A DNA stretch of 64,000 nucleotides from Eledone cirrhosa (GCA_964016885.1 OZ024752.1:12586001-12650000); one strand, 5' to 3'; positions 32,831-61,974 are shown, counted from the first letter of the stretch. Made by a program: numbers and translations. The notes: generated from the sequence alone by a model not told the origin.

Positions 32831-32881
32831 AGTTTCAGAAGATCCCGTTAAGGGTGAAAGCAGCGATTCTTTGCTTAAACT
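32831..32881 (+). ncRNA. Hammerhead-like motif with a CAGAAGA (U4A) core
   Basis: agttt CAGAAGA tccc-gttaa-gggt GAAA gcag...ttgc UU aaact; stems I and III pair. Confidence 0.55.
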
Positions 32882-34289
32882 TTAATCTGTTATTTTAATA
32901 AATATATATATCCGTCTAAATAAATATATATCCGTCTAACCCATGCTAGCATGGAAGAACGGACGTAAAACGGTGATGATGATGATATATATATATATAT
33001 ATATATACACACACACACTCCCATTTATACATATATGTATACACCATTCTAATAAATATTGCCTATATAGATAATCAAAGAGTGTGTGTATATATTTGTG
33101 TCTGTGTGTATATATATATATATAGAGAGAGAGATCTGTTGAATATGCATACCAATTCTAACACATATATGTCCTAGAAACGATCGTTAAATAATGAACT
33201 TTTTTTGTTTAATATAAGGAACTGTTTCATTGTTTTATTCATTATTTTTTTAATATTTTTTAATATTTTATATATATATATATATATTTATACACCATTC
33301 TAATAAAAATTGCCTATACAGGTAATCAAAGTGTGTAAATATTCTTTGCGGACACCCTGTATATATATATATGTGTGTGTGTGTGCGTATATATATACAC
33401 ACACACACACATATATATATATACAGGGTGTCCGCAAAGAATATTTACACACTTTGATTACCTGTATAGGCAATTTTTATTAGAATGGTGTATAAATATA
33501 TATATATATAAATATATATATATGTGTGTGCGTATATATATACACACACACATGTATATATATTTATATATATTGAAATAAATATGGGTGTAACAAAGTT
33601 TTTTCCTTGTGAAAGTTATAAAGATAAGTATTAAAAAGTGTTATAAGTATTAAAAAGCTGGTGGTTCCTGCCATAAGGAGCCTCTTGTTGGCTAGTTTTC
33701 CACTCTGTTCTTCCTATTGGTCTGACTATGAACTCACACATAATGATTTAAATATATAAATACTTATTGATTTCATCTGACAAAATTTGTTTGTTTTACA
33801 CCGATCCAGTTGTCTATGAATGATAGGCCCGTGTCACAGATGTCGACCTCAATTCTTGGACAAAAGGAACGATGACAACAATAACAACAATAGTAATAAA
33901 TGTTTCTACTTTTGGCACAAGGCCAGCAATTATCCCAGTTCATTACTGGTACTTTATTTTATCGACCCTGTAAGGATTTGAACTCGGACCGTGAAGGGAG
34001 GTAACTCTATGCTGGAAAACATGGCATCCGACCCTCTACCGTTACTGCCAATTCACCGCCCTTATAATAATAATAATAATAATAATGTTTTAATGTGTCT
34101 ACTTTTGGCACAAGGCCAGCAAATACCTCAGTGCATTACTGGTACTTTATTTTATCGAGTTTTTTCAAGTAAATAATAATAATAATAATTTCTTTATTGG
34201 CCATTAGGGCCGACACGTAGGGGACACTACAAAAAGTCAGGGACAGTGAGGGTTAACAATAAAATAGAGTAAAAACAAATTAACAAATA

Positions 34290-35537
34290 CAATCTATGGT
34301 AGAACTAGAGAATAAATTCCAAACTTGGAAGCAGGGACTAGAAAGAAAGGGTCTCAAAGTCAACATGACAAAGACTAAGGTCCTTGTAAGTAAACGAGAA
34401 AACAGAACCCAGATCCCCTCAGGGAAATGGCCTTGCTCAGTATGTAGGAAAGGTGTAGGTAGGAACTCCATTCTCTGCCCCAAATGCAAACAATGGGTAC
34501 ACAAGAGATGTAGCGGGATCTCAGGAAGCTTAATTAAGAATGTAGGCTTCACATGCAGCAGCTGTGCTGGGACAGCAAGCAGCAAACAGCCACAGGAAAC
34601 AAGTACCACCAATCTCTGGGAGGGCTCTGTAGAAACAGTAGACAGCTTCTGCTACCTAGGTGACCGAATTAGTAGCAGAGGTGGGTGTTCAGAAAGTACA
34701 ATAACTAGGGTAAGAACGGGATGGAAGAAGTTTAGGGAACGACTACCACTGCTAGCTGCAAAAGGCTTCTCCCTCAGAATGAAAGGCAGACTGTATGATG
34801 CGTGTATCCGAACAGCGATGTAGCATGGAAGTGAGACCTGGGCGCTGAAGGTGGAAGACTTACGTAGATTAGAGAGAAACGAAGCCTGCATGCTCCGATG
34901 GATGTGTAACAGTAATATACATGAACGACAAAGCATAAATGAATTGAGAGAGAGAGAGTGAGCATAAGAGGAATCAAATGCTGTGTGCAGGAGAGGCGGT
35001 TGCGTTGGTATGGACATGTGATGCGTATGAAGAATGACAGCTGCATAAAAAGGTGCAGAGCACTAGAAGTCGATGGAAACCGCGGAGTGGGGAGACCCAA
35101 GATGACCTGGGATGAGGTGATAAAAGCCGACCTTACCCAATTACACCTCTTAAAGGCAATGACACACGGCCGTGACCTCTGGCATCACGCATTAATACAG
35201 AGTACCCGACCTCCCATGGGTACAAGCTGAAGCATATAGACAATATGCCCCCACTGCAAGGTGGTCGTGGAGGTGCCACGGCAAAAAAAAAAGCACCCAG
35301 CCCACACTGTAAAGTGGACGTGTAGGCGCCACGAAAAAGCACCCAGCACTCACTGTAAATGAGGTTGGTGTTAGGAAGGGCATCCAGCTGTAGAAATCAA
35401 GCCAAATCAGTTCCTGTATGAGCAAGGCATGGTCAGCCGACCAGACACTGCCCACAACAGGACAACCCGTCTAACCCATGCTAGCGTGGAAGAACGGACG
35501 TAAAACGGTGATGATGATGATGATGATGATGATGATG
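34290..35537 (+). mobile_element. 5'-truncated copy of the RTE family at 2593-6014
   Basis: Near-identical to ~4791-6014. Confidence 0.92.
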
Positions 35538-35798
35538 AATTAACAATATAAATTACAACACTAAAATTCCCCAATAAGGAGAAGAACCACCCAGGGGCAA
35601 CTCAGGTACCCCACCAATCCTGAACCACCTGAATTTCAAAGAGACCTCTCTCCTCCACAGATTAACCAGCCTACAGGCTCAAGTTCTCTGCAGGGTTCTT
35701 GCAACAGTAAACAAGTCTCACCTTAATCTGCTGGTTGTAGACAGCTGACACTTTTTATCATCCCCAGCAGAATAAAGCTGAGATTTTTAATAAAATAA

Positions 35799-36146
35799 CT
35801 AGCAGTGGTACCTGGCATTGCACGGGATAAGGTATTTTGGAACGCGGGTCGCCAACAGACCTAATCGTGGAAAAACTGCATGCCTGGACAATATGTAAAG
35901 AAAATAAACCGAATACTCTGATGGCTGGATAATCTTTAAGATTTTCCTCGATGAAGCAGGAAAAATGCAGGTTTTCACCTAATGCGGGCCCTAGGGGATC
36001 AAAAAGTTGAATTTTATGTGAATTCTATGTGCATAACACTCCCTGAAACATAAATAATACACATGTAAAGTTTGAAAAAAATCGGTTGGGTCCTTCTCGA
36101 GTTTTAGGGATTCAAACTCACAGACACACACAGTTTTATATATAGA
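35799..36146 (-). mobile_element. Non-autonomous Helitron (~350 bp)
   Basis: On the minus strand it begins TC(tatatataaa) and ends CTAG, with a subterminal GC-rich hairpin-like motif (cccgtgcaatgccagg); it sits between A and T with no TSD. Confidence 0.75.
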
Positions 36147-36364
36147 TAACAATAATGAAATTATAGTGTACAGTGCTCAGGTGCACTACAACTCATCAAA
36201 TGTGCATGTATAGTACATAGAATAATGTACAAATGTCAGGGAAGTGAATATTGTATGAGACATGATATACATGTGTGTGGGAGTATTAAGTGTAGTGATG
36301 GCGAATCTCAGGAACCATGGAGGTTTTAAAGGACGCAGTAAAATAAATAATAATAACAATGATG

Positions 36365-60018: not shown

Positions 60019-61065
60019 AAATCATGGTGTTTTTATTAAATATGGATTTGAAAACAAAATTGAAGAAATAAGAAGGCTGAGAAAAAAACGGGCGAAAAAG
60101 AAGAGGGGAACAAATATATATAAACAATAAATATCCAGAACATAAACACACACACACTCAACCGCGCGCATATACTTAAAAAGTACGAAGACGTATACTT
60201 TTTCACGTAAACGTAATAGCGTCTACATACAGGGACATAAATACATACACATACATATACAAGAAGTAATAAATAAATAAAAACAAAAAATATACAAAGT
60301 CAAAAACAAAATAAAGACAAAGAGGAGACGTGTTGACAACGATAAGTATGAGTGTGTGTGTGTGTGGGGAGGGGGGGAGGGGAATTAAAACAAATTAAAA
60401 ATAAATAAATACACGAGATGTGATATACATAAATATATATATATAAATATACACATACATACACACGCACACACACACATACATGTATAGAAAATCATAC
60501 ACACGTATAAAAACACACACACACATGCATGTGTATATATATATCTATATTTCTTAAATTTTGTTTTCAAATCCATATTTAATAAAAAACACCATGTTTT
60601 TTATTCATTCTGACGACTGATACAACATCTGCTTTCAAGAAACCACTGGTAAATGAAATAATTATCTTATGTTGTTAATTACATAACTAATAAGCTCTGT
60701 AGCCTACATAGAACACTCTTTTTTCCTGTACCTTTCCGACGGAATTACTTCATTTATATATATATATATATATATATATATATAAAAAGAGTCAGGACCC
60801 CGACGGCTGAGCTCTGGCCGTTTCGACAGCTAGATCCGAACTAGGCTTAGTTCGGATTTAGCTGTTGAAACGGCCTACTACCCTAATTATTGAGTACTCT
60901 AGTGCCTTATGGTCCACCTGGTATCTTACCACACCCTCTTTGTTATATATAGACCGAAGTCGGGGGCATTTCCGCAAAATGGCTGACTGAAATACACGCG
61001 CGTTCTCCCCCTTCCATGTTCTGTTCTATTTTATCTTTCTATTTCTTCTTTTATTTCTTATTTCA

Positions 61066-61100
61066 TCTTTTGATGAAGGACTAGTTTCCGAAACGTAAAT
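61066..61100 (+). ncRNA. Degenerate minimal hammerhead motif
   Basis: UUGAUGA agga-ctagtt-tcc GAAA cg UA; C3 is replaced by U and stem I is poor. Confidence 0.4.
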
Positions 61101-61605
61101 CCCCTTTTCTTACTAGATTAAATACTTAACTAATATATTTCTTCATTGTACTGTGTTGTTTACTTTGTTGCTTCCGTTTAGTTTTCGCCTACACACACAT
61201 ATATATACGTAGGTATATATATATATATATATATATATACCTATATATATATATATATATATATATATATATATACACGCACGCACGCGTGCCAGCGCGG
61301 TCTGTATTTAACCTCTCTGTATTTTCGTTGTTATAGTATTAATTTGTCGCTATTACCTAACTTATTGTGTTTTCTCTGAGGAGGAATTTATTACTCTCTC
61401 ATCGAGTGCTTTATAACAATTTTCGAAAATCGGATGCGAATCTGCTACTTGCAACTATACTCATTACTATTATATATATATACTCGATTATACTCATTAC
61501 TATTATATATATATATATATATATATACATATATATATATACATATATATATATATATATATATATATATATATATATATATATATATATATATATATAT
61601 ATAAA

Positions 61606-61762
61606 TAATTGTTTCTACTTTTTGGCACAAGGCCAGCAATTACCCAGTGCGTTACTGGTACTTTATTTTATCGACCCCGTAAGGATGAAAGGCAAAGTTA
61701 ACCTCGGCGGGATTTGAACTCAGAATGGCGTCCGACGCTCTACCGACACTGCCAATCCACCG
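61606..61762 (-). mobile_element. SINE family A
   Basis: Family consensus with an internal deletion. Confidence 0.85.
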
Positions 61763-61923
61763 TATAGTAATAATAAATGTGAAGACTAAAATCCGAAGAG
61801 GGCTCGATAAGGATAATATATATATATAAAAATATATAAGAACCATACAGAAAATATTTATTAAATTAACAGATTCAATTTTAAGCAAAGAATCGCTGCT
61901 TTCACCCTTAACGGGATCTTTTT

Positions 61924-61974
61924 AGTTTCAGATGATCCCGTTAACGGTGAAAGCAGCGATTCTTTGCTTAAACT
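61924..61974 (+). ncRNA. Hammerhead-like motif with a CAGAUGA (U4A) core, inside a hairpin (61882-61972)
   Basis: agttt CAGAUGA tcccg-ttaa-cggt GAAA gcag...ttgc UU aaact. Confidence 0.55.

What the first reader, a model, noticed from the sequence alone, without database searches (positions are those of the whole stretch)
32831..61974. Recurrent CAGANGA (U4A) hammerhead-like family
Seen: at 32831 and 61924, and in both arms at 58706-58804, the core reads CAGAAGA or CAGAUGA rather than CUGANGA. Stem I (agttt/aaact), stem II (ccc/ggg or ccg/cgg), GAAA and a real stem III (agcag/ttgct) with a CUU site are present in the 32831 and 61924 copies. Established: U4 is normally near-invariant. Inference: A4 recurs at three loci, so it is a family character rather than decay. 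It may be an unusual active variant or a catalytically dead structural motif retained by the element. A possible G4 analogue (CGGAUGA) lies at 7224.
Basis: partly seen in the sequence, partly recalled or inferred. Interest (0 to 1): 0.75.

Follow-up and report, generated by a model that had tools for sequence, protein, structure and literature searches.

The report
Penelope hammerhead with fixed U4A core
A young jumping-gene family with over 20,000 copies in an animal genome carries the self-cutting RNA motif typical of its kind, but with one normally fixed catalytic letter changed in nearly every copy, so it likely spread with a crippled ribozyme whose fold is kept; cutting is untested.

Summary
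The motif is real. It is the terminal-repeat hammerhead of one Hydra-clade Penelope-like retrotransposon (full copies: motif, 712-codon RT/GIY-YIG frame, motif, 3.26 kb apart). A4 is fixed: 22,944 exact matches against 748 U4 and 175 C4/G4. 28 of 30 U4 loci inspected are fold-back junctions. With stem I intact, U4 is no commoner than G4. All 26 published Hydra rows and 40 of 41 motifs from other hosts have U4, none A4. Published scanning finds CUGA-turn mutants poorly active, and cleavage dispensable for insertion in vitro. Best reading: a strongly slowed or dead core in a retained fold. Cleavage is untested and no RNA run is listed. The three loci are copies of one element, not independent events; the G4 at 7224 is one decayed copy of a U4 family. 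The scan has noted other fixed core changes in Penelope hammerheads of other genomes.

The parts
32815..32890 (+). Complete type I hammerhead-like motif of the element's terminal repeat: outer helix I 32815-32823/32882-32890, 7-nt bulge 32824-32830, inner helix I 32831-32835/32877-32881, core CAGAAGA 32836-32842 (A4 at 32837), U.U 32843/32855, stem II 32844-32854, GAAA 32856-32859, stem III to 32875, predicted cut after 32876
32423..32905 (+). 5'-truncated 3' end of the Hydra-clade Penelope-like element (86% identical to full copy L101)
32372..32423 (-). Inverted tail fragment of the same element joined head to head
61919..62000 (+). Short copy with CAGAUGA core (C3 at 61929); lacks the 5' strand of the outer helix
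61764..61920 (-). Inverted arm of the same insertion, starting inside the core; would pair with the + arm in a transcript
58754..58835 (+). Decayed arm, CAGAAGA at 58757, GGAA instead of GAAA
58673..58753 (-). Decayed inverted arm, CAGAAGA at 58745, GGAA instead of GAAA
58280..58342 (-). Tail fragment of the same element
2425..2480 (+). Comparison, not part of the family: canonical CUGAAGA hammerhead of another Hydra-type family with the same U..U stem II layout
7218..7270 (+). Not part of the family: single G4 copy of an unrelated hammerhead repeat whose copies mostly have U4

Best explanation
The motif is the terminal-repeat hammerhead of a Hydra-clade Penelope-like retrotransposon in which U4 changed to A before the family spread, which likely leaves self-cleavage strongly slowed or absent while the fold is likely kept as an RNA signal for the element's own protein. 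The element is inferred to be transcribed through the motif; its reverse transcriptase would start about 20 or 100-120 nt past the nominal cut site and copy uncut RNA back across the ribozyme, so cutting is not needed to make new copies. Shown: element anatomy, fixation of A4, intact remainder of the motif, copies that run across the cut site. Inferred: loss of activity, and a use for the fold.
For: Full copies have motif-ORF-motif with all Hydra protein marks. A4 22,944, U4 748, C4/G4 175; 28 of 30 U4 loci are fold-back junctions; with stem I intact 279 non-A copies, first 100 listed T 36, G 39, C 25 (counted by hand). A in 51 of 52 copies not picked by the motif patterns. Relatives keep U4: 26 of 26 published Hydra rows, 40 of 41 distinct motifs in 72 metagenome loci, 7,217 matches of other families here. 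Roberts 2023 (PMC9901934, passages): all single and double mutants of the CUGA turn except the C:G swap had low activity. Frangione 2024 (PMC11167929, passages): catalytic mutants of a PLE hammerhead do not affect insertion in vitro and unprocessed RNA is the main substrate. 13 of 30 start-codon-bearing copies run across the cut site and 0 of 30 end within 5 nt of it. Fold kept: subfamily-level variants at 28 of 229 upstream sites, 0 of 53 core/paired sites, 3 of 23 loop sites, all in the bulge; contigs of run X1 show the same pattern.
Against: No cleavage assay, and I found no measured value for U4A itself. All other core letters, all stems and a partly self-complementary loop III (dimer -12.9 kcal/mol) are intact, which an active ribozyme would also show. 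The tail is just as invariant (0 of 68 sites), so conservation may be of the whole end and not of the fold; the only fold-specific signal is 0 of 9 against 4 of 8 sites (P=0.03, chosen after seeing the data). Many loci were picked by motif patterns; in the unpicked set the loop-versus-stem contrast is not significant (P=0.09). Absence of ends at the cut site is weak, since Frangione saw none for an active motif either. The hammerhead fold (-13.5) is not the minimum (-15.6) and inner helix I has pairing probability of only about 0.08.
Confidence: 0.6

Rival explanations
1. A4 is a working natural core variant: slow but sufficient cleavage, helped by the extended helix I, dimer formation or the element's protein.
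For: 10 of 11 core positions and 22 pairs are intact across subfamilies. A PLE hammerhead cuts only with its protein. U4C is reported to lower activity in vitro yet allow viroid infectivity (PMC3088659, passage). Loop III keeps an interrupted palindrome.
Against: CUGA-turn mutants have low activity and no second-site rescue in a tertiary-stabilised hammerhead. U4 contacts the A6-N7 phosphate. No A4 among 41 other Hydra motifs or the published rows. With about 12% subfamily divergence only about 1.3 core changes are expected, so an intact core says little.
Confidence: 0.2
2. Neutral relic: a founder copy lost the ribozyme, nothing in the fold is under selection, and the invariance reflects constraint on or homogenisation of the element's whole end.
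For: No covariation; the tail is equally invariant; single-copy changes hit stems (3.3%) as often as loops (2.7%), as expected after insertion.
Against: The three subfamily variants inside the motif all fall in the 7-nt bulge and a fourth just outside the helix, none in the 9-nt strand between them.
Confidence: 0.13
3. A4 was kept because it forms a CAG splice acceptor; splicing would change or rebuild the core.
For: A pyrimidine-rich run and branch-like TTGAC precede CAG; several strong donors lie in the 3' UTR; the Drosophila virilis Penelope intron ends at helix I (PMC4209133).
Against: None of 10 listed donors ends in CTG, so none rebuilds CUGAAGA; none of 30 copies broken at this point joins a sense-strand donor; no GT..AG joint among the 15 of 97 joints shown. 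PLE copies keep introns, so this is a weak test.
Confidence: 0.05
4. Origin hypothesis, compatible with the others: A4 is a step in a 2-nt register shift that links the clade-standard core to the U3-A8 core of the nearest family (UUCAGAAG against UUGANAAG).
For: The U3-A8 family is the closest in the genome (53-54% protein identity; grouping support 77); 7 of 8 letters match in the shifted register and its stem II holds an inner U.U.
Against: Support is modest and the tree is midpoint-rooted; G-C-closed stems II are common in the clade (18 of 41) and a U3-A8 core occurs in the unshifted layout in L384, so no shift is needed; stems I and III of the two families are unlike.
Confidence: 0.12

Closest known systems
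Hammerheads of Hydra-clade Penelope-like elements (Craig et al. 2021, PMC8557442; Hydra section, passages and supplementary Files S1/S2 read)
   Same: Position in the terminal repeat, sense strand, type I order, CUGANGA-U..U-GAAA layout with U.U at 10.1/11.1, protein marks, (TA)n targets, inverted 5'-truncated copies, two 3' ends.
   Different: U4 is A throughout the family, whereas the paper calls canonical hammerheads universal in Hydra; stem III is 5 bp with G15.2 and a 7-nt loop; unit 3.26 kb against mostly under 3 kb.
Minimal hammerheads of metazoan PLEs and their U3-A8 variant (Cervera and de la Pena 2014, PMC4209133; parts 1-2 of 4 read)
   Same: Family-wide core variant in a PLE terminal repeat; many truncated and opposite-strand copies.
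   Different: U3-A8 is compensatory and keeps a pair; U4A has no visible compensation. Stem III here could form in a monomer.
Natural core variants U4C, A6C, U15.1-A16.1 (Perreault et al. 2011, PMC3088659; passages and one part of the text read)
   Same: Single departure from the core consensus in an otherwise complete motif.
   Different: U4A is not named in the main text (0 occurrences); its figures and supplements were not seen.
PAc Poseidon element of Anolis (Frangione et al. 2024, PMC11167929; passages read)
   Same: Two reverse-transcription start sites past the ribozyme, matching the two 3' ends seen here.
   Different: PAc has a canonical, protein-assisted ribozyme whose dispensability was shown only in vitro; here a whole family carries the change in the genome.

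Membership tests
Penelope-like element, EN+ | Single ORF with RT and C-terminal GIY-YIG endonuclease | tested here: met
   L109 5337-7475, 712 codons, YRDD and YIG motifs; 120 listed homologs at 39-57%. Pfam scan itself gave no hit.
Penelope-like element, EN+ | Partial-tandem pLTRs, inverted 5'-truncated copies, tail | tested here: met
   Motif twice, 3,258-3,259 bp apart in L101 and L109; inverted copies; two 3' ends.
Hydra clade | RWK, DKT, CxCX5C linker, CxxC and CxH, no CCHH, (TA)n insertion | tested here: met
   RWR (one conservative change), DKT, CNCRNRADC, CDLC, CKH against the definition; TA runs at the ends. No tree with the published sequences was built.
Hydra clade | Canonical hammerhead in the pLTR | tested here: not met
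   A at position 4; no other usable canonical core strand in three full copies (one CUGAAGA inside the ORF cannot pair into stem I).
Type I hammerhead ribozyme | Three helices round the core in type I order | tested here: met
   22 pairs, 96.7% of cells paired in 18 distinct copies; same layout with other sequence in related families.
Type I hammerhead ribozyme | C3, G5, A6, G8, A9, G12, A13, A14, A15.1-U16.1, H17 | tested here: met
Type I hammerhead ribozyme | U4 | tested here: not met
Type I hammerhead ribozyme | Paired 10.1-11.1 | tested here: not met
   U.U here, but so in 17 of 41 Hydra motifs with a standard U4 and many published rows; a clade trait.
Type I hammerhead ribozyme | Covariation of the stems within the family | tested here: inconclusive
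   0 of 22 pairs change on both sides; copies are 96% alike.
Type I hammerhead ribozyme | Site-specific self-cleavage | not testable with these tools
   Needs an assay; no RNA holder listed.
Non-LTR retrozyme | Short non-coding tandem units each with a hammerhead | tested here: not met
   The motif belongs to a coding 3.26-kb element; short copies are truncated or inverted ends.

The most novel reading that the evidence does not exclude
A natural hammerhead that cuts with adenosine in the uridine turn, made possible by its extended helix I, a dimer or the element's own protein: a core variant I did not find in print, carried by tens of thousands of copies.
Probability: 0.2. Interest if true: 0.7.

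Novelty: new variant of a known kind. Interest (0 to 1): 0.4.

Why it matters
What hammerheads do in Penelope-like elements is open (Craig 2021 says so). In vitro, cleavage was dispensable for insertion in one element. This family is a natural counterpart: if A4 is dead, an element reached over 20,000 copies and several hundred near-full-length young copies without cutting its RNA, and kept the fold. If A4 cuts, the uridine-turn rule has an exception. Either result comes from one cheap assay, with U4 and U3-A8 relatives in the same genome as controls. Core-constrained searches miss such families.

Tried and rejected
RNA evidence: no RNA holder listed; the four runs laid are contigs of unknown kind and cannot show ends. 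X5 holds one contig with the same motif at low depth; not counted as independent. U4 subfamily as ancestor: not found; 15 U4 copies with stem I lie on mixed backgrounds, several beside fold-back junctions. Spliced copies: none in 30 loci. Alternative core strand, as in permuted hammerheads: none usable in three full copies; permuted folds were not modelled. An antisense GAAAC..GUC pairing was seen by eye but has no CUGANGA partner. A search for closer families by a degenerate RT pattern gave 28 matches, nearly all from the two known families. Activation by A-to-I editing of A4 was considered and set aside: the host was not determined, and G-like changes in the turn are also poorly active. Rfam: no hammerhead hit (in one search only 150 of 253 rows were shown). 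Literature: 'hammerhead, U4A, ribozyme' gave 0 papers; CAGANGA and CAGAUGA gave none with hammerhead; two searches gave nothing on this variant. Lunse 2017, which catalogues PLE hammerhead variants, and Nelson and Uhlenbeck 2008 are not held, and one supplement of PMC4209133 was not searched, so A4 may be in print there. In one search, 25 of 72 loci gave no motif (13 of them end within 250 nt of the ORF) and the one G4 hit looks spurious.

Full report
1. Observation. At 32831-32881 the window holds stem I AGUUU/AAACU, CAGAAGA, stem II CCC/GGG, GAAA, a 5-bp stem III and a CUU site. The 61924 copy has CAGAUGA and one stem II change. Both arms at 58706-58804 have CAGAAGA but GGAA for GAAA, so they are decayed. 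A strict descriptor finds only 32836 in the window and nothing in 60 shuffles. Folding shows a further helix: 32815-32823 pairs with 32882-32890 behind a 7-nt bulge; the full hammerhead fold scores -13.5 kcal/mol against a minimum of -15.6, though inner helix I is weakly populated. The site at 7224 is another repeat; 14 of its 16 copies in my loci have U4.

2. The element. The window lies in a 3.0-Gb genome. [quoted passage not shown] The protein has RWR, DKT, CxCX5C, CxxC and CxH, the marks of the Hydra clade (PMC8557442); copies end in TA runs and are often joined head to head. 379 places match the start-codon region exactly, and 30 inspected are 92-100% identical to L109, so the family was active recently. 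The window copies are truncated ends of it.

3. Is A4 the norm? Exact 26-letter patterns give A4 22,944, U4 748, C4 or G4 175. Of the first 30 U4 loci, 28 are fold-back junctions where the reversed CAG supplies CTG; 2 have stem I. Demanding stem I leaves 279 non-A copies; the first 100 listed are T 36, G 39, C 25 by my count, which is mutation background, and 15 U4 copies inspected form no subfamily. Among copies not picked by the motif patterns, 51 of 52 have A. Contigs of run X1 show no other letter at that place at 4% or more.

4. Is A4 unusual for the clade? All 26 Hydra rows of the published table have CUGA, many with the same U..U closing of stem II. In 77 metagenome loci of related elements, 72 reach the ORF end, 47 give a motif with position 4 left free (41 distinct): 40 U, one doubtful G, no A; 17 have U.U. 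Other families in this genome with the same layout give 7,217 U4 matches, one of them at window 2440; the A4 version of that pattern gives 206, mostly mutated copies of the A4 family itself. The closest family here (53-54% protein identity, grouping support 77) has a U3-A8 core with U4. So the register is right and U4A is the one departure.

5. Constraint. Sites where 15% or more of copies differ: 28 of 229 upstream, 0 of 53 core or paired, 3 of 23 loop, all three in the bulge (P=0.004 and 0.025; in unpicked copies 0.018 and 0.09). X1 agrees: subfamily variants at L101 4361-4419, only changes of 7% or less, mostly at CpG, inside 4422-4482. But the tail has 0 of 68 (one variant in X1), so most of this may be constraint on the whole end. 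There is no covariation: 0 of 22 pairs in 18 distinct copies. Loop III keeps an interrupted palindrome that could pair two molecules.

6. Does it cut? Not testable here; no RNA holder is listed. In a full mutational scan, CUGA-turn mutants other than the C:G swap had low activity (PMC9901934); I saw no value for U4A alone. U4 contacts the A6-N7 phosphate, and U4C is a tolerated but slower natural variant (PMC3088659). In the one PLE reconstituted in vitro, hammerhead mutants inserted normally, uncut RNA was the main template, and cutting needed the protein (PMC11167929). Here 13 of 30 start-codon-bearing copies run across the cut site and none ends near it, and 3' ends cluster about 20 and 100-120 nt past it in both the A4 family (26 copies) and the U3-A8 family (70 copies), with fold-back points often 30-50 nt before it. 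Copying therefore used RNA continuous across the site, uncut or religated.

7. Mechanism. Most likely (0.6): U4A arose in a founder, slowed or stopped cleavage, cost little because uncut RNA is the template, and the fold persists as part of the end signal. Rivals: working variant (0.2), unconstrained relic (0.13), splice acceptor (0.05; no donor rebuilds the core and no spliced copy in 30 loci). A register-shift origin towards the U3-A8 family is possible (0.12) but not needed, since U3-A8 also occurs in the unshifted layout.

8. Novelty. Hammerheads in PLE repeats and family-wide core variants are known; U4A was not found in my searches, but Lunse 2017 could not be read. Earlier AI notes of this scan list fixed A6C, A6U and U3 cores in PLE hammerheads of other genomes; none names this sequence. 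Verdict: real, a new variant of a known kind, worth one assay; interest 0.4.

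Noticed in passing
L251, L252, L201-L225 (G000:C1:91474467-91488983 and others): A very young Hydra family (40 best matches 100% or one base off) with tandem units about 3.54 kb long and a U3-A8 hammerhead with a long stem II, 6-bp stem III and GUC site; position 7 and the stem II bulge vary between subfamilies.
   Followed up: partly
L031-L060: Fold-back junctions cluster at the core strand and often recreate CUGAAGA through a 3-nt microhomology (one search shows a joint with 3 shared letters); these would mislead a consensus or motif count.
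   Followed up: yes
window 2425-2500: Canonical hammerhead of another Hydra-type family, also with an extended, bulged helix I of different sequence (L259).
   Followed up: partly
L258 7560-7720: By eye, a CUGAAGA hammerhead with about 130 nt inserted in stem II at the end of a further Hydra family.
   Followed up: no
window 467/623, 24120, 26277, 52099, 60009/60610, 62264/62308/62673: Further CUGANGA..GAAA motifs, several in inverted pairs, from other repeat families.
   Followed up: no
window 9166-11803: Broken, interrupted Hydra-type ORF on the minus strand, 33-54% identical in pieces.
   Followed up: no
window 32470-32745: A repeat of about 140 nt occurs twice in tandem in the element's 3' UTR just before the motif.
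   Followed up: no
window 58409-58479 (+), 38226-38285 (-): tRNA-like Rfam hits of 36 and 33 bits, perhaps heads of a SINE.
   Followed up: no
window 2719-5668, 19098-20552, 29964-31574, 46215-48135: Fragments of non-LTR retrotransposon ORFs, judged by eye from the translations.
   Followed up: no
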